A DNA stretch of 64,000 bases from positions 1,248,001-1,312,000 of the forward strand of contig CM000208.1 of the NCBI GenBank assembly GCA_000002445.1, read 5' to 3'. Below, piece after piece: positions 10,889 to 58,539 of the stretch. The translations under genes were made by a program, and so were the position numbers. The notes beneath the pieces are model-generated. The model was not told the DNA's origin. It saw only the letters and a program-made list of their open reading frames with translations, and did not search any database. Origin of the DNA: Trypanosoma brucei. Its lineage: Eukaryota. Positions within the stretch are counted from its first letter, which is position 1, and each line of letters opens with the position of its first letter.

Positions 10889-11716
10889 ATGATCCTTAAG
10901 GAAGAGACCGTACTGCGCAAGACGAACGCAGAAAACTTAGCTGCGGTGCGTAACCTCAACTTATGGGGTGAAGGTCTTACGGACGTGTCTATAGTTTCTC
11001 GGTTACCGAGAATAGAGGTACTCGCTCTCGCCGCGAACAAACTCACCACGTTGAGCCCATTCGCTGCCTGCACGCAGCTGGAAGAACTATATCTGAGGCG
11101 GAACAACGTTGCATCGATGTTGGAGATTAAATATCTTCGTCATTTACCCAAGCTACATACACTATGGCTCATGGATAATCCATGCGCTCGGCACCCGCAT
11201 TACCGTCAAATTGTTATACTGTGCTGTCGCCACCTCCGTCACCTAGATGAGACAGAGGTATCAGAAAAAGAGCGTGCGGAGGCCGAAAAGTTACTTCCCG
11301 AGGGCATGCTGCAGGAAATGCTGGAGAGCGAGTCCGCTGAAGCTGCTGTTGGTACGGCTAACAAGGCTCAACTCCAGAACCGGACTCCGGTGAGTGAGCG
11401 GAAACAACCAATGGGAGAGGTGGTTCAGGGAGGCGCAATTCACGAGACTGGTGCTGGGAGGGAAAGAGGGCATCGAGTAACATCGAGTGACACAAGTGGA
11501 CGAGGTCCGAGTAGCGCCCCTGAACGCCGCCAGGGTTCTGCGGACGATGGACTGGCGCAAACTGCAGTGCAGGTCCAGCGGGCCATGTTCAGTTCGATCA
11601 TGGCGCTTGTTCCGGAGCTTGCAGTGCAAACAATTGAGGCCTTACAGAAGGAACTGGCGGAGGAACTGTGCAGGCGGGGGAAACGACTTCCCCCTGTAGT
11701 GCGGGACCGAACATGA
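10889..11716 (+). CDS. Leucine-rich repeat protein. It has SDS22-like LRRs plus an LRRcap, then an acidic/Ser-rich C-terminal tail.
   Basis: Repeats NLNLWGEGLTDVSIVSRLPRIEVLALAANKLTTLSPFAACTQLEELYLRRNNVASMLEIKYLRHLPKLHTLWLMDNP, followed by the cap YRQIVILCCRHLRHLDETEVSEKER. ATG start. Confidence 0.7.
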   Translation: MILKEETVLRKTNAENLAAVRNLNLWGEGLTDVSIVSRLPRIEVLALAANKLTTLSPFAACTQLEELYLRRNNVASMLEIKYLRHLPKLHTLWLMDNPCARHPHYRQIVILCCRHLRHLDETEVSEKERAEAEKLLPEGMLQEMLESESAEAAVGTANKAQLQNRTPVSERKQPMGEVVQGGAIHETGAGRERGHRVTSSDTSGRGPSSAPERRQGSADDGLAQTAVQVQRAMFSSIMALVPELAVQTIEALQKELAEELCRRGKRLPPVVRDRT

Positions 11717-21408: not shown

Positions 21409-21440
<32 letters not shown>

Positions 21441-30511: not shown

Positions 30512-33454
30512 TTGCCCCTCCCTTATTGGAGAATGAGTGTAAGGCACCTGTTTGGAGCCTTGCAATGGGTTACGACAGGGTCAGTTGCTGGACGCCCTCG
30601 GGATATAGAGGAGCGCGTTGAGCTGAACGGCCTCTCAGTTGGACCAAAGGACTGTGGGCGTGTTGTGGGTGTCGTCAATCCGCATCAAATAACAGAGGAA
30701 CCGTGCGATAGTTTAGAGGGTCGAAGTGAGGGCGAACACGACCACCAAATATTGATGGACAGCACGCGTGAAAACTGCGTAAATGGGAATGATAACGTGC
30801 CGGTGCATTGTGGAGAGAAGCAATCAACGTATAAGCGTGGTGGGGGTTTCAACAATGAACAAGTGTTGCTTCAGTGGAAGCTGCGCCAGTTCGATCAGCT
30901 GAGCGCTAAAATCGAGGCAAACATGGCCCGGTATCGTCAATCAGGTGACCGACGGCGCTTGAACGAGATGGAAAAAGAACTCCAGGTTATACGAATTCTT
31001 AGGGGTAGTGCGGTGCGCTGCCTAAAAGATGTAGATAATGCAAACAGCCAAACAAGCGAAAGTGGCGCGCAAAGTCCGGGAGGCGTGTCGCCGTCACCAG
31101 TGCTAAGTGCTAGTCCCTCCGAAAGTGCTTCCCATCCAGCTGATAGTGTCTCCGATAATTGTGTATTTGACACGCGTGCGCCAGTTGAGAATGGGCTGTT
31201 CCAAACTCCATTGGCGGCTCCGTCAGGCTTGCCAAGTGGCGCGACTGCCACGGACGCTGTTTTAAATGAGGCAACACCAGTTCCCTCAACGGGCGTTTCC
31301 GCTCCACCAGTGCCCCTGGCGCCACAATCCCGAGAATCGTGTAAGGCCGACTCCGACGATGCCGTTCATGCACAAGATGCGCTGCAGCAACCAAAGTCGT
31401 ATGATACCCGGTGCCCTCGTCGCCCCGAGCACCCGGCCGCAACCGCTGTGAATAATTCCATTAGGAAGCAAGGGATCCATCCCGCGGGGTCACATTCTGC
31501 AACTCCTGTAAACCGTTTTAGCAGTGCAGGTGGTAATTCCGAGGGTTGCGGGCCCACAACGAGGGAGGGGTCACCAACAGTTCAGTCTTTCATGCATCCG
31601 CGCGGAAGTGTGGGTCAGGCACCGACAGCAGCAGCAGTGCAAAATAAAAAGCCTAAAGAATGGCATGGAGATTATTTTGAGCCGTGTGACATAGGCGGGG
31701 GTGAGTCTACTTTACGTGATAAAGCGAGACGCGCTTCAGCAATAGCCACACCGACTAGTGAAGTTATTGATTCAGCAGCGTACCGCGGCTCCAGTGGAAC
31801 ACAATCTTCAGTTTCAGCGGTTGTTCACGAAATGTTTAATCGGTTAAAAAACCGTGGTTCACACTTACATGGGAAAGTTGCACCACCAGCAGCTCCTATA
31901 GTTCCTCGAAGCGAGGCAGCAGCAGAGGTGTCGGACGGCTTGTCCTCTGCAGCCCAAGCTGTATCGGTTCTTCGAAAACGTGGCAATGACCTTGTGAAGA
32001 AGGGACAATACAAGGAGGCCATACAAGTATACACAGACGCTATTAGATGCGACCCGGAAAACAATGTTCTCCTATGCAATCGAGCTGTTGCCTACTTACT
32101 CAACAACCAGTACAGGCTCTCTCTGATGGATTGTGAGAATGTGCTTTACAACTCACCAACCAATCTTAAGGCTCACTGGCGCGCCGCGAAAGCACTTCTG
32201 TATATGTATAGGACGAAAGAGGCACGGTATCACTACCGAAAGGCCAGTGAGCTTTCTACCAACGCGGCTGATGAGCGGCTAATAGCCGATGAACTGGAAC
32301 TTCTTCATTCGGTGGAGATGTACCACAGCTGCAGTAAGGAAAAACACTGGTCAAAGTGTTTGTGGCACGCTAAACAACTTCTTCAAACTTTTAGCCACAT
32401 CAGCCCAATAAATATTCCGTGGCATTGCCTGAAACTTGAGGCCCTTTTGCATTTAGACTGCTGGAAAGCATTGGAGGGTGTCAAGCAACTGAAGAAGAGC
32501 CATCCGACGTGCGCCGAGCTGTTCTTTCTCCATGCGAAGAGCCTGTTTTACTGCGCACACAATCAGCGCAGTGTGGCGGAGGCTCTAGAGCTGGTTCGGC
32601 ACGCAGTTGAGCTGAAAAAGGCTGACGGAGAAGTAGAGGATAGCCGTTATATCGCCTTAGAGCGCAACCTCACGTTATTTGAGAGATGTCGTGATCGCGG
32701 TAATGCGGCATATAAGAGCGGAAACTGGTCAGAAGCATACGATGCGTATACTTCCTGCATTTCGATAGATCCACAGAATACTTCACTTGTTGCAATGGCA
32801 TATTGCAACCGCGCAGCAACATGTATGCAGTGTGGCCGCTGGGCTGAGGCGCTGGAGGATGTCAATAACTCTATTAGCATCAACGGCACGGCACCTAAGG
32901 CATATACCCGGAGGGCTCACATAAACATCCATTTATTTAGCGAAAAAGGTGGAACAGATATACGCCTTCTTAAACAAGCTGTTAGCGACCTCCGCACGGT
33001 AGTAAAACTTGAGCCAAGCAAAGCAAACAAGCAGCATCTGGATGAGGTCGTTAGAATGACACAAGAAAAAGAAAAACAGATACAGCGCGCACACAATGAT
33101 AATTGCAACCGCTATGGGTCTGGCAGCGAGCGCCATGACTGGCGTGGTAAAGGACATCAAAAACATTCTAGCTCTCCTGGTGCCCAGCATAAAGCTGAGG
33201 GCCAAGACAATCGACGACCATCGGTTGCGACCGCATCACACTCTAGAGCTCAACTTGTGCGGTTGTTGGGGTTGGAGACCACCGCCAATTTGGATGAACA
33301 GGCACTTGTGAGGGCATATCACAAGGCTGCACTTCAGTGGCATCCTGACAGGTGGGTTGGGGCACCCAAACATGAACAACAGGTAGCGGAGCAAAAGTTT
33401 AAGGAAATCAATGTTGCGTATCAAGCGTTGAAGCAGGTGATCGGCAATCGTTGA
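30512..33454 (+). CDS. TPR-repeat co-chaperone with a C-terminal DnaJ (J) domain (DNAJC7/TPR2-like architecture). A roughly 480-aa low-complexity extension precedes the TPRs.
   Basis: TPR motifs (e.g. AIQVYTDAIRCDPENNVLLCNRAVAYL; GNAAYKSGNWSEAYDAYTSCISIDPQN...AYCNRAATCMQCGRWAEALEDV). J domain at about nt 33230-33430 with an HPD motif (YHKAALQWHPDRW...KFKEINVAYQAL). Track start is TTG; first ATG is at 30533. Confidence 0.85.
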   Translation: MPLPYWRMSVRHLFGALQWVTTGSVAGRPRDIEERVELNGLSVGPKDCGRVVGVVNPHQITEEPCDSLEGRSEGEHDHQILMDSTRENCVNGNDNVPVHCGEKQSTYKRGGGFNNEQVLLQWKLRQFDQLSAKIEANMARYRQSGDRRRLNEMEKELQVIRILRGSAVRCLKDVDNANSQTSESGAQSPGGVSPSPVLSASPSESASHPADSVSDNCVFDTRAPVENGLFQTPLAAPSGLPSGATATDAVLNEATPVPSTGVSAPPVPLAPQSRESCKADSDDAVHAQDALQQPKSYDTRCPRRPEHPAATAVNNSIRKQGIHPAGSHSATPVNRFSSAGGNSEGCGPTTREGSPTVQSFMHPRGSVGQAPTAAAVQNKKPKEWHGDYFEPCDIGGGESTLRDKARRASAIATPTSEVIDSAAYRGSSGTQSSVSAVVHEMFNRLKNRGSHLHGKVAPPAAPIVPRSEAAAEVSDGLSSAAQAVSVLRKRGNDLVKKGQYKEAIQVYTDAIRCDPENNVLLCNRAVAYLLNNQYRLSLMDCENVLYNSPTNLKAHWRAAKALLYMYRTKEARYHYRKASELSTNAADERLIADELELLHSVEMYHSCSKEKHWSKCLWHAKQLLQTFSHISPINIPWHCLKLEALLHLDCWKALEGVKQLKKSHPTCAELFFLHAKSLFYCAHNQRSVAEALELVRHAVELKKADGEVEDSRYIALERNLTLFERCRDRGNAAYKSGNWSEAYDAYTSCISIDPQNTSLVAMAYCNRAATCMQCGRWAEALEDVNNSISINGTAPKAYTRRAHINIHLFSEKGGTDIRLLKQAVSDLRTVVKLEPSKANKQHLDEVVRMTQEKEKQIQRAHNDNCNRYGSGSERHDWRGKGHQKHSSSPGAQHKAEGQDNRRPSVATASHSRAQLVRLLGLETTANLDEQALVRAYHKAALQWHPDRWVGAPKHEQQVAEQKFKEINVAYQALKQVIGNR

Positions 33455-42068: not shown

Positions 42069-43571
42069 ATGAACCCGTCCTATTTGAATCAGATATTGAG
42101 TTACCCCCAACGCGAATCGCTAATTTCGGAGTGCCCCGCGCTTGCACTCCTCTGCTATCAGGAATTAGTGGCTGCCTTCCGCAAAGGGAAACGCATTGCT
42201 GATCCGCTGTCTTTGAGGGATGATGTCACAGTCCTACTTTCCATTGGATCGTTGCATGAACTGACGGACCGGATTTTCTCAGCTGCACCGCATGAATCCG
42301 CTTTGCCTCCTCTCTGGTGTACGCTTCGGAAGGCTCTTGAGTGTGCCTGGGACCCCAGAGGTGATGGTGAGCGACAATGTGAACTAACGATGGTGGGTGG
42401 GAAACTCCGATTTTACAAGAAAAAATGTGATAGGATGCCGCTTGCACAGTCATCAATGCGGAACGCACTTAATATGAGTAGAACACGCATTCGAGAAGTT
42501 ATTGCCTGTGCCCTATCGGGTTCACTGGAGCCCCTTGGAGGGAGACGTAACGAGCCTATCGCTGCATTACTTCAGTTTTCCCGCCTGATCCCACCACCGT
42601 CGGAAGAGCGGGTCGTCACCTCTGAAGGATTGGCATTTTGCATGCAGCCCCTTCAACAACAGTGGTGGACATTAGTATCTGTTGTGTTAGATCGCGCACT
42701 GGCCATAATGTCGGGTAAAGGAGTCTCACGCGCCACTCTTTGGCAGCTTCTAGCTGTTCTGTTTGCACTTAACACAAGTGATTATGTTTACTTGTTTCCT
42801 TCAAAGGATGATGACCTTGAGGCCTTTCAACTGCTGGCGCGCCTCTCGGAGGTCGGGTTGGTTTACCCCCTTATTTGTAACGGAGAGAAATGCTTTGTGC
42901 TTTCTCCCCACTTCCACCACGCCATATGTTGGAGTTCTACACCATCGCTTTGCACAGCGGCATTGCTGGACGACACGAGGGGTCCATCGTCTCGTCTACG
43001 GCGGGAGGATGAAGATACTATCATCACTGAAACAAATTTTCGACTATACGCATACACGAAAAATCCTGACATGCTGCGCATTCTTGATCAATTTGCGGTA
43101 AAGGAAGTGGATGTGGTGGGAATGGTTGTATGCTACAGGGTGACACGAGCATCATTTGCAAGTGCACTAGCGAAAGGCATAGGCGCAAACCATATATTGC
43201 AATTTCTTACGGTGAAGGCACATCCTTCTATGATCAAGCAGAGCAATAGTGAGGCTGGTGACCCGTCGTGCCCGGTTCTCCCCGCTGCTTCTGTGGGATT
43301 CGGTAATACATCTGAATATCGTCAGGGAAATATTATACCACAATCCTTTTGTGATCAACTGTTCACGTGGGAGAGGGAATGCCGAAGACTAATTTTTCGT
43401 CACGATGTGGTGCTGTTGAAAAATATCGGGAAAGAGCAGATGGAAATAATCTTAAACTGTCTTTCAAATAGTGGGGAACAGCACGCCGTGGTGCATCGCG
43501 AGAGCGGTACTTTGGCCATTGAACAGGAGGTTTACACGCGTGTACTGTCCAATTTCATTACTCCGGATTAA
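42069..43571 (+). CDS. Possible TFIIH subunit p52 (Tfb2/GTF2H4-like); otherwise a hypothetical protein.
   Basis: 500 aa. The N-terminus YLNQILSYPQRESLISECPALALLCYQEL resembles the Tfb2 N-terminus ([27 protein letters not shown]). Size matches p52. The functional call is tentative. Confidence 0.45.
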   Translation: MNPSYLNQILSYPQRESLISECPALALLCYQELVAAFRKGKRIADPLSLRDDVTVLLSIGSLHELTDRIFSAAPHESALPPLWCTLRKALECAWDPRGDGERQCELTMVGGKLRFYKKKCDRMPLAQSSMRNALNMSRTRIREVIACALSGSLEPLGGRRNEPIAALLQFSRLIPPPSEERVVTSEGLAFCMQPLQQQWWTLVSVVLDRALAIMSGKGVSRATLWQLLAVLFALNTSDYVYLFPSKDDDLEAFQLLARLSEVGLVYPLICNGEKCFVLSPHFHHAICWSSTPSLCTAALLDDTRGPSSRLRREDEDTIITETNFRLYAYTKNPDMLRILDQFAVKEVDVVGMVVCYRVTRASFASALAKGIGANHILQFLTVKAHPSMIKQSNSEAGDPSCPVLPAASVGFGNTSEYRQGNIIPQSFCDQLFTWERECRRLIFRHDVVLLKNIGKEQMEIILNCLSNSGEQHAVVHRESGTLAIEQEVYTRVLSNFITPD

Positions 43572-46291: not shown

Positions 46292-47104
46292 ATGAGCAGT
46301 TCTGAACACGATAGTCGTGTTGCGTACTGTAAGGAGCATAATGTGCATCATCTCTTTGAGCTCATGGCTTCCAGGTTGCTAGTTGAGCGCCCCGAGAACC
46401 CTTTTGAATACCTTCGGGAGTTGCTGGTCACGGTGGAGAACTCCAAGAAGCAAACAGCACATGATCCCACAATGCTTCCGTCGTCGCCATTGGGGGCGAA
46501 GGACAAGCTGACGAAGATCACAATAGGCACATTTGGTATTGAGAATGCCGGCAAAACAACGATCATTTCTGCTTTGGGAGGAAATATTGAGAAGAATCCT
46601 ATGCCTACCGTCGGATTCACTCCTACAAGATTCCAGACGGATAGGTGCGATCTTTGCATCTTCGACCTTGGCGGAGGCGCCAACTTTCGAGGAATTTGGG
46701 TTCACTATTTCCACGACTGTCATGGTTTCATGTTCGTCATCGACTCTGCAGCGGATGATGCGGTTGTGGAGGAATCCCTCAATGCACTTCGCACTGTAGC
46801 GCAGCACAAGCATGTGCGTGGCAAGCCGGTGCTGGTGCTGGCTAACAAAAAGGACTTAAAGAGTAGCAGAGGCGTTGAGATTGTTTCTGAAGGCCTCTTG
46901 GAGGAACTCTTTGGGGATGTTTCTCTCTACCATCTAGTGCCTTCATGTGGCATTGAGGAGGATCCTGAACTGGAGAAGGGCGTTGATTGGCTATTGACGA
47001 AGATACAGAAGGAATATACTCACATTGATAAGTTGGTGGAAAGTCAGACGCTGGAGGTAAAAATGGAGGCGGAACAAAAGAGGAAGAAGTTGCTTGAAGA
47101 ATAG
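46292..47104 (+). CDS. ARF-like small GTPase (ARL) with an N-terminal RIIa/DPY-30-like dimerisation-docking helix and a C-terminal coiled-coil tail.
   Basis: G1 GIENAGKTT; switch I PTVGFT; G3 FDLGGGANFRGIW (non-canonical, against the DVGGQ consensus); G4 NKKD; G5 SCG. The N-terminal VAYCKEHNVHHLFELMASRLLVERPENPFEYLRELL matches the RIIa/DPY-30 pattern. Confidence 0.85.
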   Translation: MSSSEHDSRVAYCKEHNVHHLFELMASRLLVERPENPFEYLRELLVTVENSKKQTAHDPTMLPSSPLGAKDKLTKITIGTFGIENAGKTTIISALGGNIEKNPMPTVGFTPTRFQTDRCDLCIFDLGGGANFRGIWVHYFHDCHGFMFVIDSAADDAVVEESLNALRTVAQHKHVRGKPVLVLANKKDLKSSRGVEIVSEGLLEELFGDVSLYHLVPSCGIEEDPELEKGVDWLLTKIQKEYTHIDKLVESQTLEVKMEAEQKRKKLLEE

Positions 47105-48356
47105 AGAAACAGCTGATGTGTTTTACATTGCCCGTAAGGGAGAAGGCGGGCACTGTTAATCATAGAGGACACATGCATGGGGAAGTTGCTGCTCGTGTGA
47201 GTAACATATTGACAGTGACATTAGAAGCGAGTGCGGGCATTTATTGTTCTTCGGTGCTAAACTCTAGTGAGTACGTTTCGGTGAGTTGTGAACTGATGTG
47301 GGCGTTCCCTTGTGTTGTGATACTGCATTTCTCCGCCTTTCGACTTGTTTGTATGAAAACTACATTTGTAGTTGCCACTATCACACTATTGTGCGTCGAC
47401 GTGCCAACACTTTTTCTTTGTCATCTGTTTTGCTTTTTTTTTTCGTTTCTCTTCAAACATCCTTTTCGGTGTTCGTGCACCGCTCATCCGATCGGTGGGG
47501 GTCTCGTTTTGTGCGATCTAATTTTCGATTAGCGGAGGTAGTGTTTCCTTTCCTTCCCCATAGGTGGATGGTTATCATTCCATTTCATCTTCTCTATTTT
47601 TAGTATTTTGATTATCCCTTAATGCCACTGCATGTGTTAATTCACTGTTTGCTGCCCACCGTTCTGCCACTTTTTTTTCCTTTCTCCTTCTTTTACTTTT
47701 TTAAACATTGTCTGTACTTACCCTTTGTCTCTCGGTAGGTGTAAAGAAGGGGTACTCTACACCAACTTTTTGTTAGCCTCCTTCTTAGTTTAAACTAGGG
47801 GTTCAGAATCCTTATTTTCCCCCTTCCCTCCCCCCCAAAAAAGGGAAAACAAAGCAAATCAAAGGAAGGGAGAAGGGGTTACGGAGTTAGATATATAGAT
47901 AGGGGGGAAAGTGAAGGTGTGTCCTCCTGCCGAGAAGTAAAGCAAAAAAGACAGGAAAGGTAGAATAGAAGTGGGAAAGGAAAGGAGGGCGCATCCCCGC
48001 CACTTAGCATTACACATTGTTCTATTTCACCCTTTTTTATTTCGAAATTTTTGTTGGTGTCGTTGTTATTGTTATTGTTATAATTTTTTTTTGTATTCTC
48101 TTTGTGTTATTGTGGCCCGCGTGCTTGTGTGGTGGGAGAGTGACATACGTACATTCAAGTTTTTGGTCGGCTCATTTCTTAGTTGGAGCGAGAGGACGTA
48201 CTTGCGCGCACGCACACACAAACAAACAAAAGGGTTGACAGACACAAAGCAACTCCATACATTGGTGTGGTGGAGGTTCGGGAGTATTTTATATAGCACT
48301 CCCCTACACTGTTATTTGCCTTTTCCTCCTTTTATCTCGCGTGTGGCTGAAATACG

Positions 48357-51300
48357 ATGACTTTAATTCCTCAAAACCCCTACCGAATGAGTTTCAGCAG
48401 ATGTAATAATGAGCGAAAAGCTTCAATTCCCTTGCAACCGACCAACACGAATGGGGGGATCAGTGCTGATAACACTGGTGTAGATCTTAAAGCTCATCGT
48501 GTGACTCCATTCACCACCACATTTGGACGGAGACACACCCTATATGGGGAGACAGAGATACGCGAGGCAAAGGAAACTTTAGCAAAGTTATTTGTGCCAG
48601 TGGCAAAGTTGGGAATGTACCGGCTGCGAAGAAGTAGACTGCACAAAAAGAATTCAGAGCTTCGGAGCTACACTATCGACTCCATTGTTCAGGCATACCG
48701 GAGTTCCAACTCAATAATCTCCACTTGGCCTATGGACGTGCTAACCTTGCTTGCTGAGGGAGCACAGTATCACTACTTAGAAGATGGCGAGGTGATTGTA
48801 TATGCGAGGGAATGGTACTTGTCGACTGGAATTATTGTTGTTCTCTTCGGTGAGGTGCAGGAGACGCTACCAAAATCTGAGAAAAACTTCACACCGAATA
48901 AGACGTCTGGTAACATACGGCACCCTGAGCGTTCCGTTTTATGCGAACAAACCGTTCTCTGTAGGGATTTTGCACCTTCGCGTCTAAAGGCGCACGGTTA
49001 TGCCGATGTAGCAGTAATACCCGCTCGCTGGGTTTGGGATGCCATCAATTACACCTCAATGGAGCCATTTGCTGAGGGGATGCTAGACTCTTTGAGAATG
49101 ACTGTTGCACCATTATGTGAAAGCGTTTTGGAACGAACGTACTTTCCCACCGCGTTGACGCTTCGTCGCAGTTGGCTTTGGTCTTTCTTCAGTGCAGGGG
49201 AGCGAATTCGTCTCGCACGCCTCATGGAGGTGAAGGTGTTTTGCGCTGGCGACACCCTGTTTGGTGAAGGGGACCGTAATCCGTACGTGTACATCATTCG
49301 CCGCGGTGCCGTTCGGGTTGTGGTGTGCAAGGAGCCCATTTTGGACTTTGGCCCCGGCGCAGCCTTCGGCGAGGTGAGTGTCATTTTTGATGAACCACGC
49401 TGCTGCCATGCGATTGCCACGTGTTTATGTGAAGTTTACTGTTTGCACCGTCGTCACATTATGAAGCGACTCAGGAAGAAGGCGCACGTGTGTGATAGCG
49501 TGATTGGAACAGCCCTGAGAAGGCGTGAGCAGTGGTTGGAGGACGCCAAGACAAGGCACGTGATGAGCCTTACTGTTTTGTTAGGAGGCGTCCCCTGTCT
49601 CAGTCAGGCGACAGAAAAGGTCCGAGCGGCCATAGCGGAGAAGGCCAAAACAGTGGTGCTGCCCCCGCGACAAGTGTTATTCAAAAAGGGAACCTTGTGC
49701 GATCATCTTTTCATTGTGGGGCGGGGAACCCTCTTAATGGAAGGTGCTGAAGATACTGTAGCGACTCGTACGTCAACGGGGTTTGTGGGTGAGTTGTTTC
49801 TCCATCCGCATTTGTGGCCCACAGACGTTACCTCCCTCACATCTGTTGATGGCTGGATGTTCCACGTTGATGTAGTGAAGGATGCGCTTGATAGCATAAA
49901 CGCAAGGGAACAGGCAGTTGACATATGCCGTCAGGGGATTGAACTTTATCGCGCTCAGTACGGGCCGGAAAGTGTTATGGAGCCAACCCCTGCACCCCGA
50001 AAGTTGGGTCCCGCGCGTAAAGGCACAACTGCCTTTTCTTCGGGGGCGAAGCAGTCAAATTCACTCCGTCAGAAGGGGCAACCCAGAAGTCCGTCACTTC
50101 CCAGCACGCCAAGGCTTGTAGCGGTAGCGAAGACTACTCCTGTGAAGGAGGAGCCACTGGAGAAGTTTGATTGGAACGCGTATGCAATCGAGGATAAGGT
50201 AGCGCTGCCCTCAGCGGACACGGATGAAAGTGATAAGCGCAGTGAACGGCAGCAGACCGAGCATGTCATTGAGGCTGAACTCGGTGGGCAGGCGGGGAGT
50301 TTGTTGTCCGCTGGTGTAGGGCTAGGAATTAGTGCTATTGACTGCGACTTTTCTGATGAGGTGGATGAGATGCGGCAAATGTTACTTGAGCAGGCCCTTC
50401 TAATACCTTCAAACAGACTACTGTTCTTCCTCAGGCAAATAAATCGCAGCAAGGTTACATTGGTGGTGGACGACGGTGCCGTTGTGACGGGAGAGTGTTC
50501 GTTAGAGACAACCGTGGGTGACGATCTGACGTTCCCCCAGTACGTCTTACCGCCCTCTGTTGTGTACACTTTAGACAATGTGAACACTTATAATGTGGAT
50601 GGCGCGCCATTTAACGGGGAGGACGTGCTAAACGACACCAACCGACAGTTAGCAGACGGAGTCGGTACGACTGCGCACCGACGAGCACGCACTCCCGAAG
50701 TTGCTCTTGTGACACCAGATTTTATGTCAACGTTTCGCTCCACCGATGAAATGGCAAATACAACCTTAAAGGGGCAACAGTTTGGCGGCCTTTCATTGTT
50801 CCTGCGGTCCGGTCGTCCATGTTCGGGGCTCAGTGGTAAGCACCATCTACAGCATTCATCGTCCCTTTATGGGACGCTGCGGCGTAGGAGTCTTAGCGGG
50901 GTGAGCAGAAATTATACTCCTTATCCCCAAACTCCTTTTACGCCTGATGTACACGGTTCGACACAGTACAGTTTCTCTAACATATACACAAGACTCAATA
51001 GCGTGGATTACACACAACAAGCGAAAATCACAGCTTCTGCACTCCAGTCTGCTCTTGATCGTTTTGTGAAACTGGACGACCAAAATTACTTTCAACAAGT
51101 GGTGCGTGTCTGCTTACCAACAGAGGCAGAGCAGCAGTTGATTACGGAAGAGGTTGGTAGTGGTGGTAAGAGTAGCTGTGACTTGATACTACTGCTGATG
51201 CACGTTAGGAAGTGTGAGGGCCTCCAGCTAAGTGACGATATGCAGTACCCTATTGTGAAGGTTTATACCAAGACGCGCGTCCTCATCAGAACGCCAATTA

Positions 51301-53465
51301 TGGAGGATCGTGTGGAACCGGACTGGCCGATTGAGGTGGCCTCTTTTATAACATTTATTCGCCGTGATGCTGACGTCAGCTTTTGCATCTGTGATGCGGG
51401 CCAGGAAGATAAGGTTGAATATACTGCCAACCTGGCCGCAGCTGACTTAGGAGAGAATAGGGGTGTTGGCCTTCGGAAGTTGGTCATGCATCGTGGGGCT
51501 ACGGAATCTAATGATGAAATCAATGAGACCAAAGCCACTATTGAGGTGTGCATGATGGCCGTTACTACTTCCAAGCACCACGCACTGCAGAAGCATCTTG
51601 ATGAGGAGGAGGACGCTTGCAAATCATCTGATGACTTTAGTGCAATCTACCTGCAGGTACTGGGGGTGAAAGGCTTAAAGCATCGTATAGAGGCTGCCGT
51701 CCATATTAGTGTGGAGATGGATGGGAAGACAAAAGAGGTTCTGCGCACCCATAAGATCGCACCCAAAACACGCTCTCCCGCGTGGCCGGGGCAAACCAGT
51801 TTTTGTGTTGCTCAGGGGGACGGTGTAATCAGTTTTGATCTTTTCCATCGCGACACGTTTGTGGCGTCGTACGATACTTCCGTCGACACTCTCGCATTTG
51901 GCGGTACCGGTGTGCAGTGTTTACCTCTCCTTCGCGCTCAGGGGACCGGCGGGGACCCCTATGGCGACTTGTATGTTTCCATTCTTGGAACCAAAACACC
52001 ATGTGGGGAGGAGGACGTCGTGGAGCGACCGTCGAAGTTGCTTGTCGTGCATGTGGAGGCGCTTTCTCTACGCCAAAATCTGGATTTAGAGTTTGTACCT
52101 GATCCATTTGTCATTATCCGGGGCCCCAAAGGGGAGGTAATTATGCGCACCGCAATGAACTTTGGTACGTATGAGGCGAAATGGTCGGAGGAACGTGCTT
52201 CTTGCTTCATCCTTTGCCCCTCGCTCCCCGGTTGCGTCGTAACGTATCACTTGGAGGTGTATGACAACAATGAGTCGAGCAAGATTGGTGAAGCAACAAT
52301 GACGGTTACCGTGAACGGCACAAAACGCAATCGTATGATGCTTGACATTGGGGGAAAGGGACTACTCACAGTGGTGGCTCATTCGTTTCCAATACAAGAT
52401 GTTATCAGCCACAGCCAACCGCCTGGATCAGGTCTTACCAATCACCTCACCGACACCTCCAGCTCTAGTATAGAAGAAGGTTACTTCTTGCAGGTTCATA
52501 TTTGTAGTTGTGAGAGCCTTCAGGGGACTGGGTTTGATGATTTCCAGATTGACCCTGTCGTAACTGCACGGGTTGGACGGAAGCGTATTGTAGTTGCACC
52601 ACTCGTGTCGGGCTGTACGGCACCCCAGTGGAAGTATCCGAAAGCCACTTTTGTCCTTCCGTTTGTCCCTGACGTTCTCAGCCATATCGTTTTGGAGGTT
52701 TGGGACACCAACATCGAGCTATGCGATGTTCTCGGCGTCGCCCGCCTTCCAATGGAAGAGATATGCCGAACTGGAACACACAAATACACTCTGCAGCCAC
52801 ATAAGGATCAAGAGTATGGTCGGCGCAGGGATTTAGGTACCATTGTGGTAAACACTCGGTTCGGTCGCGTAAATGGAGCTGTCGTTTCTAAGGAGTCGCC
52901 CTTGTTCTTTTCAGCGGGCTCTTCAGGCTCAGGTATCTTTCGGTCCCGTTTATTTCCTTCTACGAATAGGGGGCCAAACCTCCCCATCACTCGAGTCCGT
53001 TTGCACATATCCAGCTGCTGCTCTGCCGTATCCGCATGGCCTTTCGACTTTATAAAGGTGACATTAACATGCCTTCATCATGTTTTGCTTGAGGTGCGTA
53101 AATCCTGCAAAGATGAATTCTTCGTCGCATGGTCCGTTGATGATGCGCAAACTATCGTGGACCTTAGGGCCATATACGGACGATCCCTGCGACTCGCTGT
53201 TTCTGGTGGAAAGGAAGAGACTGGACGATTAACAACCCACATTGGCGCCGCGCATTTGCCCTTTTCAACGCTGGCATCAGCGTCCCCGGAGGTTGTCTCT
53301 GTGCGGAGTTTACCACTAGTAGACCAGGCAACTGAGGAACGGAGTAGCGGGAGTAGAAGTGGTCGGCGATGTGTAACTCCGAGTGTTTCAGCGCAGGAAC
53401 CTAGTATAACCGTGTCCCTTCTTGCGCTTGATTCTGACCACTCTGTGAGCTTGGGAAGTGAGTAG
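48357..53465 (+). CDS. Giant (1702 aa) protein with cyclic-nucleotide-binding domains and multiple C2-like domains.
   Basis: Two clear cNMP-binding domains with an FGE signature at about nt 49170-49470 (...GPGAAFGEVSVIF...) and a GEL signature at about 49560-49860 (...STGFVGELFL...). A degenerate N-terminal one is at about 48510-48870 (VLFGEV). There are three or more C2-like beta-sandwich segments (about 51640-51960, 52020-52230, 52480-52800). Confidence 0.85.
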   Translation: MTLIPQNPYRMSFSRCNNERKASIPLQPTNTNGGISADNTGVDLKAHRVTPFTTTFGRRHTLYGETEIREAKETLAKLFVPVAKLGMYRLRRSRLHKKNSELRSYTIDSIVQAYRSSNSIISTWPMDVLTLLAEGAQYHYLEDGEVIVYAREWYLSTGIIVVLFGEVQETLPKSEKNFTPNKTSGNIRHPERSVLCEQTVLCRDFAPSRLKAHGYADVAVIPARWVWDAINYTSMEPFAEGMLDSLRMTVAPLCESVLERTYFPTALTLRRSWLWSFFSAGERIRLARLMEVKVFCAGDTLFGEGDRNPYVYIIRRGAVRVVVCKEPILDFGPGAAFGEVSVIFDEPRCCHAIATCLCEVYCLHRRHIMKRLRKKAHVCDSVIGTALRRREQWLEDAKTRHVMSLTVLLGGVPCLSQATEKVRAAIAEKAKTVVLPPRQVLFKKGTLCDHLFIVGRGTLLMEGAEDTVATRTSTGFVGELFLHPHLWPTDVTSLTSVDGWMFHVDVVKDALDSINAREQAVDICRQGIELYRAQYGPESVMEPTPAPRKLGPARKGTTAFSSGAKQSNSLRQKGQPRSPSLPSTPRLVAVAKTTPVKEEPLEKFDWNAYAIEDKVALPSADTDESDKRSERQQTEHVIEAELGGQAGSLLSAGVGLGISAIDCDFSDEVDEMRQMLLEQALLIPSNRLLFFLRQINRSKVTLVVDDGAVVTGECSLETTVGDDLTFPQYVLPPSVVYTLDNVNTYNVDGAPFNGEDVLNDTNRQLADGVGTTAHRRARTPEVALVTPDFMSTFRSTDEMANTTLKGQQFGGLSLFLRSGRPCSGLSGKHHLQHSSSLYGTLRRRSLSGVSRNYTPYPQTPFTPDVHGSTQYSFSNIYTRLNSVDYTQQAKITASALQSALDRFVKLDDQNYFQQVVRVCLPTEAEQQLITEEVGSGGKSSCDLILLLMHVRKCEGLQLSDDMQYPIVKVYTKTRVLIRTPIMEDRVEPDWPIEVASFITFIRRDADVSFCICDAGQEDKVEYTANLAAADLGENRGVGLRKLVMHRGATESNDEINETKATIEVCMMAVTTSKHHALQKHLDEEEDACKSSDDFSAIYLQVLGVKGLKHRIEAAVHISVEMDGKTKEVLRTHKIAPKTRSPAWPGQTSFCVAQGDGVISFDLFHRDTFVASYDTSVDTLAFGGTGVQCLPLLRAQGTGGDPYGDLYVSILGTKTPCGEEDVVERPSKLLVVHVEALSLRQNLDLEFVPDPFVIIRGPKGEVIMRTAMNFGTYEAKWSEERASCFILCPSLPGCVVTYHLEVYDNNESSKIGEATMTVTVNGTKRNRMMLDIGGKGLLTVVAHSFPIQDVISHSQPPGSGLTNHLTDTSSSSIEEGYFLQVHICSCESLQGTGFDDFQIDPVVTARVGRKRIVVAPLVSGCTAPQWKYPKATFVLPFVPDVLSHIVLEVWDTNIELCDVLGVARLPMEEICRTGTHKYTLQPHKDQEYGRRRDLGTIVVNTRFGRVNGAVVSKESPLFFSAGSSGSGIFRSRLFPSTNRGPNLPITRVRLHISSCCSAVSAWPFDFIKVTLTCLHHVLLEVRKSCKDEFFVAWSVDDAQTIVDLRAIYGRSLRLAVSGGKEETGRLTTHIGAAHLPFSTLASASPEVVSVRSLPLVDQATEERSSGSRSGRRCVTPSVSAQEPSITVSLLALDSDHSVSLGSE

Positions 53466-56571: not shown

Positions 56572-58539
56572 ATGTCTGGCACTAATCACCTCCGTCAGGT
56601 GGTTCCCGCAGCCGTTTACAACCCAATACCTCCTGCACCACCGTTCATGGTGTTTTGCGACCCGTACGCGAAGGTCGCCAACGCTACTGCAAAGTACAGG
56701 AATCAACCGCCAGTCGCACCGAACGCTGCCGCTGTTTTTCAGCAGCAACTCTACAGTTTACCTTTTCATGGTGTTGCTGGGGTTCCCGCCCCTATGCGTG
56801 AAGAAGAGGACGCTGATGGGTCTTTTGAGGTTCACGACAGCTGCCTCAAGGCACCTATTACTGTAGGGCGTCGAGTTGTAATCCCCACTACCGGAAGCCG
56901 TGGCCTTTTCAACTGTGCGCAGCTTCCAAGTAATGGAAACAGTGGTGGTAACTGCAATAACAACTCCAATAGTAACGGGAATGGTGGGAAAAGTTTCGCG
57001 CGAATTTGTGACGCCCATCCCGAGGGAAGGTGTATTTCAGGTGAACAGTGCCCTGACATTCATGTGCAGGCCGAGTACCTAACTGCTCAGCGACAGGAGA
57101 TGATATTCTGGCTTGAAAGTAAGGAACGTGAGTTCCAGAACACACTGCGTGCGGATCCGACCAAGATGTTCCGTGTGTTCTGTGCGGACCTTAAAGAGGC
57201 CGTGGAAGTCCCGATTAGCGCGTTGCAATTCACTAAAGGTCTATACGTGGATCCGTCGGTTCGGGCTCGCCGGGCGCGTGCGGGTCATCAGAACCAGTTC
57301 GCGATGTTAGCCTCGCAGTTACCAACTGCCTGCGGATTGTTTCTTAGCAACCCTTCGCAGTGCAGGTGGGCCCGTTGGTGTAACCAAATTCATGTCGACT
57401 TCACGTGGATGCAGACGAAGAAGAAAGAGTTTGAGTCGTGGTTCAACGAACTGGAGGGACGCTTCAATGCACTTCCCGATGACTACGAGTTTCATGTGCA
57501 CGACCCACAGCTTAAAATGGGTTTAAGAATTCCGAAAGCAAGCATTGCTGTCTTTTCTCGTGGTCTCTTTCAGGGATCGCCGAAGAAGGCGCCGAGTGTC
57601 TGCATGCTCTTTCAACGGGACCGGTGCACAGCAAATGTGTGCTGCAATCAAATTCATGTGATACCGCGGTACTTAGCTTTGCATCGACTTTTGATACAAA
57701 AAGGGGACAGCATTACTGAAGAGGAGCGCGGGAACATTATGAATCAAATGAAGGAGATACTGGAGTCGCAGAAGCGGAGCATGCAGGTTGCGGACGATGG
57801 TGACGCCAACTTTCTCGCAAGGGAGCTAAATCCTCAGGCCGTACCGTACGTCCCACCGCAGCCAACAAGTGTGTGGCGCACGGGGGGCTCTGCGGGTAGC
57901 AGCAGTCCACCACGGACAGCAGCGGCTCCCATTCCTGTTCCCGAGCCCCTTCCAACATTCCGCCAACCACCGCAGTGGAACGAACACTCACCTTCAGCTG
58001 CTGTGGATGGCTCTCCGTACGCTTCCCCTCACCGACGCGTTGAAAGGTGTGGTAGCAGCGGCACGCGGGACTTGCACACCTGTTCCAATCCACTGGAAGA
58101 TTTGATTGAGTTCGTGGATGGGGACAAGTCGCGTACGTCTCTTCTCGCAAGTCAGAGTACAACGAGTCAGGCTAGTCGCAGTTGCAAGCACACCAATAAC
58201 CCTTATGCGTTTGGTGCGAGCTATAAATGTACCGCATCACCCACTTTTGGATGGGTCCAACCTGTTTACAGTGCAGCAAATAGCGGCTCGACACATCCAG
58301 CGAACCGCTCGTGGGGAAGTGGCAGCGTTACAGGCGGGTGTCAACCCATTCGAGTGCGTGTAGGAGGTGGTGGAATTATGGAACATGAACCGTTGGAGCC
58401 CTTTTCTTTGGATCAACACGATATGGGTGCCAGTCCCTTTGAATGTCGCTCACCAGCGCACCGGACGTTGGGATCAAGAACTATAGAAGACCGCCTCAGT
58501 TCTTCGCCAACGTGGAGTGCCACGCAGAAACAGAGATGA
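56572..58539 (+). CDS. CCCH-type zinc-finger RNA-binding protein with three fingers; a paralog of the gene at 17388.
   Basis: Fingers at nt 57007-57063 (CDAHPEGRCISGEQCPDIH), 57331-57393 (CGLFLSNPSQCRWARWCNQIH) and 57601-57657 (CMLFQRDRCTANVCCNQIH). The inter-finger linker FRVFCADLKEAVEVPISALQFTKGLYVDP is similar to the linker FTVRCFHPSMTEYFNIPSELVYYTKGSMEY of the 17388 protein. The C-terminus is Ser/Pro-rich. Confidence 0.8.
   Translation: MSGTNHLRQVVPAAVYNPIPPAPPFMVFCDPYAKVANATAKYRNQPPVAPNAAAVFQQQLYSLPFHGVAGVPAPMREEEDADGSFEVHDSCLKAPITVGRRVVIPTTGSRGLFNCAQLPSNGNSGGNCNNNSNSNGNGGKSFARICDAHPEGRCISGEQCPDIHVQAEYLTAQRQEMIFWLESKEREFQNTLRADPTKMFRVFCADLKEAVEVPISALQFTKGLYVDPSVRARRARAGHQNQFAMLASQLPTACGLFLSNPSQCRWARWCNQIHVDFTWMQTKKKEFESWFNELEGRFNALPDDYEFHVHDPQLKMGLRIPKASIAVFSRGLFQGSPKKAPSVCMLFQRDRCTANVCCNQIHVIPRYLALHRLLIQKGDSITEEERGNIMNQMKEILESQKRSMQVADDGDANFLARELNPQAVPYVPPQPTSVWRTGGSAGSSSPPRTAAAPIPVPEPLPTFRQPPQWNEHSPSAAVDGSPYASPHRRVERCGSSGTRDLHTCSNPLEDLIEFVDGDKSRTSLLASQSTTSQASRSCKHTNNPYAFGASYKCTASPTFGWVQPVYSAANSGSTHPANRSWGSGSVTGGCQPIRVRVGGGGIMEHEPLEPFSLDQHDMGASPFECRSPAHRTLGSRTIEDRLSSSPTWSATQKQR

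What the first reader, a model, noticed from the sequence alone, without database searches (positions are those of the whole stretch)
48357..53465. Giant multi-cNMP-binding, multi-C2 protein
A 1702-aa protein combines at least two canonical cyclic-nucleotide-binding domains (FGE and GEL signatures), a degenerate third one, and three or more C2-like domains, with no kinase or channel domain. This architecture would suit a cAMP-responsive, membrane- or Ca2+-associated scaffold. In trypanosomatids that is interesting given their divergent cAMP signalling, where PKA is not cAMP-activated and cAMP response proteins are involved.
Basis: partly seen in the sequence, partly recalled or inferred. Interest (0 to 1): 0.55.

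Follow-up and report, generated by a model that had tools for sequence, protein, structure and literature searches.

The report
Known trypanosome flagellar protein cAMP-BP1

Summary
ORF 48357..53465 (+) encodes 1702 aa, with Pfam cNMP_binding at E 5e-21 and C2 at E 1e-14, and no kinase, channel or transmembrane segment.

The protein is identical at all 1702 residues to T. b. brucei TREU927 XP_822769.1. It lies between TbArl13 (Tb927.10.5230) and ZC3H32 (Tb927.10.5250). Its predicted 5'UTR is exactly the 618 nt published for Tb927.10.5240. It is therefore cAMP-BP1 (Zhou, Nguyen & Li, JBC 2024).

[quoted passage not shown] Knockdown produces epimastigote-like cells. CNB1, CNB2 and C2-1 are required. 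cAMP binding remains untested. The T. cruzi orthologue is TcCC2CP.

What I add:
- Only CNB1 has a canonical phosphate-binding cassette.
- CNB2 carries a family-wide Trp in place of the Arg, and by sequence is closest to the non-binding KCNH CNB-homology domains.
- A third, degenerate CNB (aa ~107-261), which the 2024 paper does not mention, is supported by fold and by transitive homology to a diplonemid CNB.
- None of the five C2 domains keeps a full Ca2+ site.

Verdict: already known, low interest.

The parts
48357..53465 (+). Complete coding sequence of cAMP-BP1 (Tb927.10.5240), 1702 aa plus stop codon
   Evidence: ORF list and translation. Zero differences over 1702 aa from T. b. brucei TREU927 XP_822769.1/Q38B79.
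47739..48356 (+). Predicted 5'UTR of 618 nt, preceded by a polypyrimidine tract (47660-47705) and the AG splice acceptor (47737-47738)
   Evidence: Sequence read. The length equals the '618-bp 5'UTR' stated for Tb927.10.5240 in PMC11555346. The splice site itself is inferred, not measured.
48594..48653 (+). Conserved basic helix (aa 80-99) ahead of the CNB array
   Evidence: AF2 helix at model residues 2-20, at low pLDDT (37-50). The basic motif is conserved in orthologues and a similar one occurs in the diplonemid P0028. Function unknown.
48675..49139 (+). CNB0 (aa ~107-261): a degenerate third cyclic-nucleotide-binding-like domain. Cassette Gly is replaced by Cys196 and cassette Arg by Ala206.
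   Evidence: AF2 gives the same order of secondary-structure elements as CNB1, with pLDDT about 85-90 in the core. Foldseek aligns 407-459 of 471 columns to Plasmodium PKG, which has four CNBs, against about 275 columns for two-CNB PKA-R. The CNB0 profile hits Pfam-positive CNB domains in P0028 and P0029. Pfam and hhalign do not detect CNB0 directly.
49152..49550 (+). CNB1 (aa ~266-398): canonical CNB domain with cassette G334..F337-G338-E339..P347-R348
   Evidence: Pfam 54.3 bits, E 1.4e-14. Aligns to yeast Bcy1 'FGELALMYNSPRAAT'. Fold from AF2. The Arg is kept in 17 of 20 family members.
49554..49961 (+). CNB2 (aa ~400-535): CNB fold with a non-canonical cassette, F476-V-G478-E479-L-F-L-H-P484-H485-L-W487-P488, with Trp in place of Arg
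   Evidence: Pfam 29.4 bits, E 8e-7. The Trp is invariant in 11 of 11 orthologues and kept in 18 of 20 wider family members. Best PDB sequence matches are the KCNH2/ERG CNB-homology domains, E 1.3e-3. Matches the R-to-W statement of PMC11555346 Fig. S1.
49977..51176 (+). Linker (aa ~541-940): low-complexity, S/T/P-rich, with short conserved islands (DFDWNAY, VDCDF, FLRQIN.SKVTL, LDR[FY]VKLDDQ.YF)
   Evidence: No Pfam hit. AF2 pLDDT below 50 at aa 880-941. Mean identity 0.32. Conserved islands seen.
51183..51563 (+). C2-1 (aa ~943-1069)
   Evidence: AF2 eight-stranded sandwich. hhalign to C2-4 gives 96.5% probability. Pfam C2 hits the equivalent region in the Leptomonas and Phytomonas orthologues. 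Required for function according to PMC11555346.
51639..51995 (+). C2-2 (aa ~1095-1213); loop 1 is basic (invariant K1108-H1109-R1110)
   Evidence: Pfam C2 E 0.0045 on the fragment. AF2. Invariant columns.
52035..52394 (+). C2-3 (aa ~1227-1346); PDPF ... YDNNE
   Evidence: Pfam C2 E 0.006. Alignment to the rice C2 structure 4rj9 places D1249 and D1303 on Ca2+ ligands, N1305 on the second loop-3 Asp, and shows the final Asp pair deleted. AF2.
52482..52883 (+). C2-4 (aa ~1376-1509); FDDFQIDP ... WDTNIELCD
   Evidence: Pfam C2 26.8 bits, E 6e-6. AF2. hhalign to C2-3 gives 96.5% probability.
52992..53429 (+). C2-5 (aa ~1546-1691): highly diverged C2-like sandwich
   Evidence: Supported by the AF2 fold only. 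hhalign to C2-1 is colinear over 122 columns but has only 2.5% probability. Counted as C2-5 in PMC11555346.

Best explanation
This is the gene for cAMP-BP1 (Tb927.10.5240) of Trypanosoma brucei brucei TREU927. It encodes a soluble, non-enzymatic scaffold of the flagella connector and the tip of the growing flagellum attachment zone (FAZ).

Shown by others:
- It associates with FLAM3.
- It keeps the new flagellum tethered to the old one.
- It promotes FAZ elongation. Depleting it turns trypomastigote-shaped procyclics into epimastigote-like cells.
- CNB1, CNB2 and C2-1 are each required.

Inferred here:
- The N-terminal half is a three-domain CNB array in which only the middle domain (CNB1) can hold a cyclic nucleotide phosphate.
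- CNB0 has lost the cassette Gly and Arg.
- CNB2 has an anciently fixed Trp in place of the Arg.
- These two most likely act as allosteric or protein-contact modules. Comparable cases are the degenerate CNB of Plasmodium PKG, CNBD-B and CNBD-C of CARP1, and the KCNH CNB-homology domain.
- The five C2 modules dock the protein to membrane or partners without classical Ca2+ coordination.

Most likely mechanism: cAMP made by the adenylate cyclases of the flagellar tip binds CNB1. This changes how the CNB array presents the linker and C2 arm to FLAM3 and the membrane junction.
For: Identity:
- Zero of 1702 residues differ from XP_822769.1.
- The flanking genes are TbArl13/Tb927.10.5230 and ZC3H32/Tb927.10.5250.
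- The 618-nt 5'UTR matches the published value.
- The R-to-W change in CNB2 matches the paper's Fig. S1.

Function: localisation, RNAi phenotype, FLAM3 dependence and domain-deletion rescue are all in PMC11555346. TcCC2CP could not be knocked out in T. cruzi.

CNB1 competence:
- Pfam 54 bits.
- Its Glu and Arg align to those of Bcy1.
- The Arg is kept in 17 of 20 family members.

CNB0 and CNB2 degeneracy.

Three CNB folds and five C2 folds: AF2 and Foldseek.

No transmembrane segment and no other Pfam domain.

Precedent in the same organism: CARP1 has one canonical and two deviant CNBs and binds cAMP with EC50 about 32 nM. Adenylate cyclases and the CARP3 regulator sit at the flagellar tip (title of PMC9481589).
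Against: - cAMP binding has never been demonstrated for this protein. The only attempt failed technically.
- Deleting whole domains cannot separate ligand binding from folding, as the authors themselves note.
- CNB1's Arg is replaced by Trp in Phytomonas EM1 and in P0027, and by Phe in P0029. Nucleotide binding is therefore not indispensable across the family.
- The gene was not among the CARP hits of the cAMP-resistance RNAi screen, judging from the gene IDs listed in PMC10354285.
- In T. cruzi the orthologue looked vesicular rather than flagellar.
- C2-3 and C2-4 are as conserved as CNB1 yet dispensable in culture. Part of the function is therefore still unseen.
Confidence: 0.85

Rival explanations
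1. Pseudo-receptor scaffold. None of the CNB domains binds a cyclic nucleotide in vivo. They are structural or protein-interaction modules, like the KCNH CNB-homology domains whose pocket is filled by an intrinsic ligand. The protein would then be a constitutive architectural component of the flagella connector and FAZ tip.
For: - CNB2 alone is closest by sequence to the hERG and mosquito ERG CNB-homology domains.
- CNB0 and CNB2 lack the Arg.
- CNB1's Arg is lost in three family members.
- No binding data exist.
- It is absent from the cAMP-resistance screen hits.
Against: - CNB1 keeps F-G-E...P-R in 17 of 20 members across kinetoplastids and a diplonemid. That level of conservation is hard to explain without a phosphate ligand.
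- CARP1 and CARP11, which have equivalent cassettes, do bind cAMP.
- The KCNH similarity is marginal (E about 1e-3).
Confidence: 0.3
2. Sensor of a ligand other than cAMP. CNB2, and possibly CNB1, would bind a nucleoside or another small molecule, as trypanosomatid PKA regulatory subunits do. The invariant PH.W motif would form a new pocket.
For: - The PH.W motif is conserved from trypanosomes to a diplonemid, which indicates selection on the pocket.
- CNB2 is required for function.
- PDB entries 6hyi and 6hyq show T. cruzi PKA-R bound to inosine and guanosine and described as cAMP-independent (titles).
Against: - No direct evidence.
- CNB2 shows no specific similarity to the PKA-R nucleoside-binding cassettes.
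- A bulky Trp could just as well fill the pocket.
Confidence: 0.12
3. Ca2+-triggered membrane binder. The C2 array would confer Ca2+-dependent phospholipid binding, as in synaptotagmins and ferlins, coupling Ca2+ and cAMP signals.
For: - Five C2 folds, with Foldseek best matches to ferlins, E-Syt2, copine BON1 and synaptotagmin-1.
- C2-4 keeps four acidic positions plus an Asn.
- The T. cruzi authors suggest Ca2+ involvement.
Against: - No C2 has the full Asp set.
- C2-1, the essential one, has 'Y/S-P-I-V' instead of 'D-P-Y-V'. Its loop 3 is 'D-A-G-Q-E-D' in T. brucei, so only the first of the loop-3 Asp positions is kept (D-A-G where D-x-D is expected).
- C2-2's loop 1 is basic (K-H-R).
- C2-3 lacks the terminal Asp pair.
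- The partial C2-4 site is not conserved in Leptomonas or Phytomonas.
- C2-3, C2-4 and C2-5 are dispensable in culture.
Confidence: 0.1

Closest known systems
T. brucei cAMP-BP1, Tb927.10.5240 (Zhou, Nguyen & Li, J Biol Chem 2024, PMC11555346)
   Same: It is the same gene: identical protein, same flanking genes, same 5'UTR length, same R-to-W change in CNB2, and two CNB plus five C2 domains.
   Different: Nothing differs in sequence. My analysis adds a third degenerate CNB (CNB0) upstream of the two published ones, and finds that the C2 domains lack complete Ca2+ sites, although the paper's abstract calls them calcium-binding.
T. cruzi TcCC2CP, TcYC6_0079900 (bioRxiv 10.1101/2023.07.09.548290)
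   Same: Probable orthologue. The 1691-aa T. cruzi hit has about 50% identity over 96% of the length and the same Pfam content. The gene length of 5076 bp matches. It appears to be essential.
   Different: It was reported as vesicular and partly acidocalcisome-like in epimastigotes rather than at the flagellar tip. I did not confirm directly that P0007 is the Y-strain gene, because the IDs are not in the tools.
T. brucei CARP1 (PMC10354285)
   Same: A kinetoplastid, flagellum-associated, non-enzymatic protein with three CNB domains, of which only one has a canonical cassette.
   Different: CARP1 has about 700 aa (my recollection) and no C2 array. Its canonical CNB is the first rather than the middle one. 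cAMP binding is demonstrated (EC50 about 32 nM), and it was recovered in the PDE-inhibitor resistance screen.
Plasmodium PKG regulatory region / PKA regulatory subunits
   Same: These are the best structural and sequence matches for the CNB array, as tandem CNB domains linked by B/C helices. From my own knowledge, PKG also contains one degenerate, non-binding CNB.
   Different: cAMP-BP1 has no kinase domain and no evidence of an inhibitor sequence or a catalytic partner. The CNB array is followed by a 400-aa linker and five C2 domains.
KCNH (hERG/EAG/ELK) cyclic nucleotide-binding homology domain
   Same: Best PDB sequence match of CNB2 taken alone. Both keep the Gly-Glu and lack the cassette Arg.
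   Different: The similarity is marginal (E 1e-3). There is no channel, and no intrinsic-ligand strand has been identified.
Ferlins, extended synaptotagmins and copines (multi-C2 proteins)
   Same: Arrays of C2 beta-sandwiches, and the best Foldseek matches to the C-terminal model.
   Different: cAMP-BP1 has no transmembrane anchor and no FerA, DysF, SMP or vWA domain. There is no detectable sequence similarity to any PDB C2 by phmmer, and the Ca2+ sites are incomplete.

Membership tests
cAMP-BP1 / Tb927.10.5240 (identity of the gene) | Protein sequence identical to the TREU927 chromosome 10 product annotated 'cAMP binding protein' | tested here: met
   0 of 1702 residues differ from P0014 = XP_822769.1/EAN77941.1/Q38B79.
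cAMP-BP1 / Tb927.10.5240 (identity of the gene) | Lies between Tb927.10.5230 and Tb927.10.5250 | tested here: met
   The upstream ORF is an Arf/Arl GTPase, matching TbArl13. The downstream ORF has 655 aa and a KHTNNPY motif near aa 529, matching ZC3H32.
cAMP-BP1 / Tb927.10.5240 (identity of the gene) | 618-nt 5'UTR; CNB1 with Glu and Arg; CNB2 with Arg replaced by Trp | tested here: met
   The first AG after the polypyrimidine tract is 618 nt upstream of the ATG (compared). E339/R348 and E479/W487.
Cyclic nucleotide-binding domain (Pfam PF00027): CNB1 | Profile score above the gathering threshold, and the eight-stranded beta-barrel with a cassette helix | tested here: met
   54.3 bits against 27.5. 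AF2 topology. Foldseek to PKA-R and PKG, E 1e-22 to 1e-14.
Cyclic nucleotide-binding domain (Pfam PF00027): CNB1 | Cassette Gly-Glu and Arg (F-G-E-[LIV]-A-L-[LIMV]-x3-[PV]-R-[ANQV]-A) | tested here: met
   F337-G-E-V-S-V-I-F-D-E-P-R348-C-C. Key residues align to Bcy1. The consensus is quoted.
Cyclic nucleotide-binding domain (Pfam PF00027): CNB1 | Measured binding of cAMP or cGMP | not testable with these tools
   The authors' cAMP-agarose assay failed because of non-specific binding.
Cyclic nucleotide-binding domain: CNB2 | Profile score above the gathering threshold, and the fold | tested here: met
   29.4 bits against 27.5, which is marginal. AF2 fold.
Cyclic nucleotide-binding domain: CNB2 | Cassette Arg that contacts the cyclic phosphate | tested here: not met
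   Trp487 occupies the position four residues before V491. It is invariant in 11 of 11 orthologues and kept in 18 of 20 family members.
Cyclic nucleotide-binding domain: CNB0 (aa 107-261) | Detectable by the Pfam profile or by profile-profile comparison to CNB1 and CNB2 | tested here: not met
   No Pfam hit in aa 1-260 even at E 10. hhalign probability is 2.2% or less.
Cyclic nucleotide-binding domain: CNB0 (aa 107-261) | CNB fold, and homology through intermediates | tested here: met
   The AF2 secondary-structure order is identical to CNB1. PKG alignments cover 407-459 of 471 columns. The CNB0 profile matches regions of P0028 and P0029 that Pfam calls cNMP_binding, with E 3e-4 and 4.5e-4 against 1.84 billion proteins.
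Cyclic nucleotide-binding domain: CNB0 (aa 107-261) | Cassette Gly-Glu and Arg | tested here: not met
   The positions are occupied by Cys196, Glu197 and Ala206 when aligned to the cassette 'LGDFTQLTEQPRTA' of P0028.
C2 domain (Pfam PF00168) | Profile score above the gathering threshold | tested here: met
   Whole protein 54.7 bits against 22. C2-4 alone scores 26.8. C2-2 (17.6) and C2-3 (17.2) fall below the cut-off on their own. C2-1 and C2-5 are not detected in T. brucei, although C2-1 is detected in Leptomonas and Phytomonas.
C2 domain (Pfam PF00168) | Eight-stranded beta-sandwich fold, present five times | tested here: met
   AF2 C-terminal model with five sandwiches, mean pLDDT 69 and domain cores 75-90. 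Foldseek to ferlins, E-Syt2, BON1 and Syt1.
Ca2+-binding C2 (synaptotagmin/PKC type) | Five acidic Ca2+ ligands in loops 1 and 3 | tested here: not met
   C2-3: D1249 and D1303 are kept, the second loop-3 Asp is Asn, and the last Asp pair is deleted. C2-4: D-x-N in place of D-x-D. C2-1, C2-2 and C2-5 lack most positions. The mapping for C2-1, C2-2 and C2-5 was done by eye on the alignment, so it is less certain.
Ferlin / extended synaptotagmin | Membrane anchor plus FerA/DysF or SMP domain | tested here: not met
   The maximum Kyte-Doolittle 19-residue mean is 1.55, and it falls in beta-strands. No such Pfam domain is found.
PKA/PKG or Epac type cNMP effector | Covalently linked or partnered kinase, or a GEF domain | tested here: not met
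   Only cNMP_binding and C2 pass in Pfam. A non-covalent partner cannot be excluded with these tools.

The most novel reading that the evidence does not exclude
cAMP-BP1 is a genuine cAMP effector with an unrecognised three-domain CNB switch, arranged as degenerate CNB0, ligand-binding CNB1 and Trp-cassette CNB2. This switch is ancestral to kinetoplastids and diplonemids. Through it, cAMP from the flagellar tip would directly control FAZ elongation and so the trypomastigote-to-epimastigote change in shape. That would give trypanosomes a long-sought cAMP effector for a developmental morphogenesis step.
Probability: 0.3. Interest if true: 0.55.

Novelty: already known. Interest (0 to 1): 0.15.

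Why it matters
Trypanosome cAMP signalling lacks the usual effectors, because its PKA does not respond to cAMP. Any protein with an intact cyclic-nucleotide pocket is therefore a candidate effector. This one sits at the flagellar tip, where the adenylate cyclases are, and controls a cell-shape change linked to life-cycle progression.

That case has already been made in print for this exact gene, so the scan finding adds no discovery.

They are:
- a third degenerate CNB domain;
- only one competent cassette;
- an ancient Trp-bearing cassette in CNB2;
- C2 domains without full Ca2+ sites;
- diplonemid relatives.

Tried and rejected
- The word-indexed homologue search was run twice, with the single sequence and with the alignment. 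It saturated at 8000 candidates and returned only 11-12 trypanosomatid proteins, missing Leishmania. The exhaustive profile search recovered them.
- phmmer of the C2 region against PDB sequences found nothing.
- The C2-3/C2-4 profile found only one marginal C2, 4rj9 at E 0.11.
- hhalign of CNB0 against CNB1 and CNB2 gave no support. CNB0 therefore rests on fold and transitive homology.
- hhalign of the last domain against the other C2s was not significant (2.5% or less).
- Jager et al. 2014, the first in-silico description of the T. cruzi CNB proteins, is not held in the library.
- The Rfam scan of the window found nothing. Tandem repeats were only simple A/T-rich runs.
- I considered and rejected membership of PKA-R, PKG, Epac, CNG/KCNH channels, ferlins and E-Syts, because the defining catalytic, channel or anchor parts are absent.
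- I considered that the antisense ORF at 50069..50587 (172 aa, GTG start) might be a gene. I rejected this because it lies inside a conserved coding region on the opposite strand of a unidirectional gene cluster.
Full report
**1. Observation**

The window carries an ATG-initiated ORF of 1702 codons at 48357..53465 on the + strand. It belongs to a run of 16 long ORFs, 15 of them on the + strand. That layout is typical of a trypanosomatid polycistronic unit. The exception, 13082..13828 (-), lies antisense inside the protein-kinase ORF.

Pfam gives cNMP_binding at E 5.1e-21 (two stretches) and C2 at E 1.3e-14 (three stretches). Nothing else passes its cut-off. Scanning fragments separately gives:
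- CNB1, aa 293-372: E 1.4e-14.
- CNB2, aa 433-511: E 8e-7.
- C2 near aa 1099-1168: E 0.0045.
- C2 near aa 1228-1319: E 0.006.
- C2 at aa 1378-1470: E 6e-6.

The best PDB sequence matches are PKA regulatory subunits and Plasmodium PKG. The description is therefore accurate and far beyond chance.

**2. Identity**

The protein is 100% identical to a cluster named 'cAMP binding protein, putative' from the T. brucei group. It has zero differences over 1702 residues from T. b. brucei TREU927 XP_822769.1/Q38B79, which lies on a 4.05-Mb contig. It differs by one residue from T. equiperdum and by three from T. b. gambiense.

A literature search found Zhou, Nguyen & Li (J Biol Chem 2024, PMC11555346), who describe Tb927.10.5240 as cAMP-BP1. 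Three independent checks tie the window ORF to that gene ID:
- The upstream ORF 46292..47104 is an Arf/Arl GTPase, and Tb927.10.5230 is TbArl13.
- The downstream ORF 56572..58539 has 655 aa with KHTNNPY near residue 529, as described for ZC3H32 = Tb927.10.5250.
- The first AG after a polypyrimidine tract lies at 47737-47738, exactly 618 nt before the ATG. The paper gives a 618-bp 5'UTR.

In addition, the paper's Fig. S1 states that the CNB2 arginine is replaced by tryptophan, which is what the sequence shows (W487).

**3. What is already known**

According to the paper:
- cAMP-BP1 has two CNB and five C2 domains, three of the C2s seen only by AlphaFold.
- It localises to zone 1 of the flagella connector and to the new FAZ tip in procyclic forms.
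- It is in proximity to FLAM3, and the two depend on each other for localisation.
- It is needed for flagellar connection and FAZ elongation.
- RNAi produces epimastigote-like cells.
- Deletion mutants lacking CNB1, CNB2 or C2-1 fail to rescue. A mutant lacking C2-2 rescues partly. Mutants lacking C2-3, C2-4 or C2-5 rescue fully.
- cAMP binding could not be tested, because the cAMP-agarose beads bound non-specifically.

The T. cruzi orthologue was named TcCC2CP in a 2023 preprint. There it is described as vesicular, with a growth defect in the single knockout and no null mutant obtained. A 2026 review lists it as an essential signalling component.

**4. The CNB region re-examined**

An AlphaFold2 model of aa 80-550, built with 12 sequences, has mean pLDDT 81. 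It shows three consecutive modules, not two, each with the CNB order of elements. That order is N-terminal helices, beta1 to beta6, a short helix, beta7, beta8 and the B/C helices. The modules are:
- CNB0: aa ~107-261.
- CNB1: aa ~266-398.
- CNB2: aa ~400-535.

Foldseek aligns 407-459 of the 471 columns to Plasmodium PKG, which has four CNBs (E about 1e-22). Two-CNB PKA-R structures align over about 275 columns.

CNB0 is invisible to Pfam and to hhalign against CNB1 or CNB2. However, a profile of CNB0 searched against 1.84 billion representative proteins found only 15 proteins. All are long, and the list includes Leishmania and Strigomonas orthologues. The two weakest hits are P0028, from the diplonemid Artemidia motanka, and P0029. 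Both are matched exactly where Pfam calls a cNMP_binding domain.

In P0028 that domain still has a near-canonical cassette, 'VLGDFTQLTEQPRTASVRA'. It also has the family motif 'SFWPDEQLQRLA'. Aligned to it, the T. brucei CNB0 has Cys196 for the Gly, Glu197, and Ala206 for the Arg. CNB0 is therefore a true but degenerate CNB, and the 2024 paper does not mention it.

One detail needs correcting, though. The 'FGE' at aa 164-166 lies on the beta3/beta4 turn and is not a cassette.

**5. Cassettes across the family**

CNB1 reads G334-A-A-F-G-E339-V-S-V-I-F-D-E-P-R348-C-C. Its Glu and Arg align with those of yeast Bcy1. It fits the PKA consensus quoted in PMC10354285. The Arg is kept in 17 of 20 family members. 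The exceptions are Trp in Phytomonas EM1 and in P0027, and Phe in P0029.

CNB2 reads F-V-G478-E479-L-F-L-H-P-H-L-W487-P-T-D-V491. The motif G-E..L.P-H.W is invariant in the 11 trypanosomatid orthologues. The Trp persists in 18 of 20 members, including the diplonemid.

Taken alone, CNB2's best PDB sequence matches are the cyclic nucleotide-binding homology domains of hERG and mosquito ERG, with E 1.3e-3 to 1e-2. From my own knowledge, this class does not bind nucleotides. The similarity is marginal and is only a lead.

The pattern of one competent and two deviant CNBs parallels CARP1, which binds cAMP with an EC50 of about 32 nM.

**6. The C2 region**

An AF2 model of aa 880-1702 has mean pLDDT 69, with domain cores at 75-90. 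It shows five beta-sandwiches:
- aa 943-1069
- aa 1095-1213
- aa 1227-1346
- aa 1376-1509
- aa 1546-1691

Foldseek's best matches are otoferlin, myoferlin and dysferlin, with more than 1000 aligned columns and E down to 5e-19. E-Syt2 C2A-C2B, the copine BON1 and synaptotagmin-1 follow.

By profile comparison, C2-1, C2-3 and C2-4 are clearly related (96.5% probability). C2-2 is weakly related. C2-5 is related only by a colinear but non-significant alignment.

No transmembrane segment is predicted.

Ca2+ ligands:
- C2-3: alignment to the rice C2 structure 4rj9 puts D1249 and D1303 on ligand positions. It puts Asn1305 on the second loop-3 Asp, and the terminal Asp pair is deleted.
- C2-4: has FDDFQID1399P and WD1450-T-N-I-E-L-C-D1457, that is D-x-N instead of D-x-D. 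This partial site is not kept in Leptomonas or Phytomonas.
- C2-1, the essential one: has Y/S-P-I-V where D-P-Y-V is expected.
- C2-2: has an invariant basic K-H-R in loop 1.

Classical Ca2+ switching is therefore not supported. The mapping for C2-1, C2-2 and C2-5 was done by eye.

C2-2, C2-3 and C2-4 are as conserved as CNB1, with mean identity 0.60-0.64 against 0.61. Yet C2-3 and C2-4 are dispensable in culture. This suggests roles in other stages or conditions, which is my inference.

**7. Mechanism**

The best-supported account is that of the published work: a scaffold that links the new flagellum tip or flagella connector with the FAZ tip through FLAM3.

What I add by inference:
- CNB1 is the only plausible cyclic-nucleotide site.
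- CNB0 and CNB2 are allosteric or contact modules.
- The C2 arm docks without Ca2+.

Adenylate cyclases and their regulator CARP3 are at the flagellar tip (PMC9481589), so a local cAMP input is plausible. It remains unproven.

Three rivals stay open:
- a pure pseudo-receptor scaffold;
- a sensor of a ligand other than cAMP, acting through the Trp cassette;
- a Ca2+-dependent membrane binder.

**8. Verdict**

The finding is correct in substance, but it concerns a gene that is already annotated, named and functionally characterised. Novelty is 'already known' and interest is low. The residual value lies in the small refinements above and in the unanswered question of ligand binding.

Noticed in passing
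window 17388..18932 (+) and 18933..26339: A 514-aa ORF has three non-canonical CCCH-like motifs (C..G..C...HV) and a C-terminal NNPY motif. It weakly resembles ZC3H32, which lies 38 kb downstream (BLASTP E 0.008). It is followed by about 7.4 kb with no ORF of 200 aa or more (the only listed ORFs are low-complexity, at most 156 aa), at 27-32% GC over 20-26 kb, probably a very long UTR or intergenic region.
   Followed up: partly
window 46292..47104 (+): The gene immediately upstream of cAMP-BP1 is the ciliary GTPase TbArl13 (Tb927.10.5230). Two flagellar genes are therefore adjacent. This is probably coincidental in a polycistron.
   Followed up: partly
window 48594..48653 (aa 80-99 of the protein): A conserved basic amphipathic helix (consensus about RRVLR.RK.KRW) precedes CNB0. 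A similar one is present in the diplonemid relative P0028. It could be a calmodulin-, lipid- or partner-binding helix. There is no Pfam hit.
   Followed up: no
P0011 (Phytomonas sp. EM1) and P0027, CNB1 cassette: In these two family members the CNB1 cassette Arg is also replaced by Trp (GEASALFGDPWNC and GELGLFFHDQWQV). They have no canonical cassette left at all. This is a natural test of whether nucleotide binding is needed.
   Followed up: partly
P0028 (Artemidia motanka, diplonemid, 1092 aa): It carries the same three-CNB module, with a nearly intact first CNB, but has no Pfam C2. Its C-terminus looks like a different beta-rich domain. The tri-CNB module therefore predates the fusion to the C2 array, or the transcript is partial.
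   Followed up: partly
P0010 (Leptomonas pyrrhocoris orthologue): The public record names this 1954-aa CNB/C2 protein 'putative 40S ribosomal protein S9'. This is evidently a mis-annotation.
   Followed up: no
PDB 9ya0 chain MA (Toxoplasma PCR12, TGME49_219070): A 2736-aa component of a solved Toxoplasma assembly matches the CNB region (E 2.4e-8, residues 1603-1822). This is another case of CNB domains inside a large structural protein.
   Followed up: no
window 50069..50587 (-): A 172-aa GTG-initiated ORF lies antisense within the cAMP-BP1 coding region. I treated it as a chance ORF.
   Followed up: no
window 1955..2983, 10889..11716, 12504..13832, 26340..29636, 30512..33454, 42069..43571 (+): The other neighbours have ordinary Pfam content: RNase HII, an LRR protein, a protein kinase, a protein with an XPC-binding domain, a TPR plus DnaJ protein, and TFIIH Tfb2/p52. 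No Rfam family was found anywhere in the window.
   Followed up: partly
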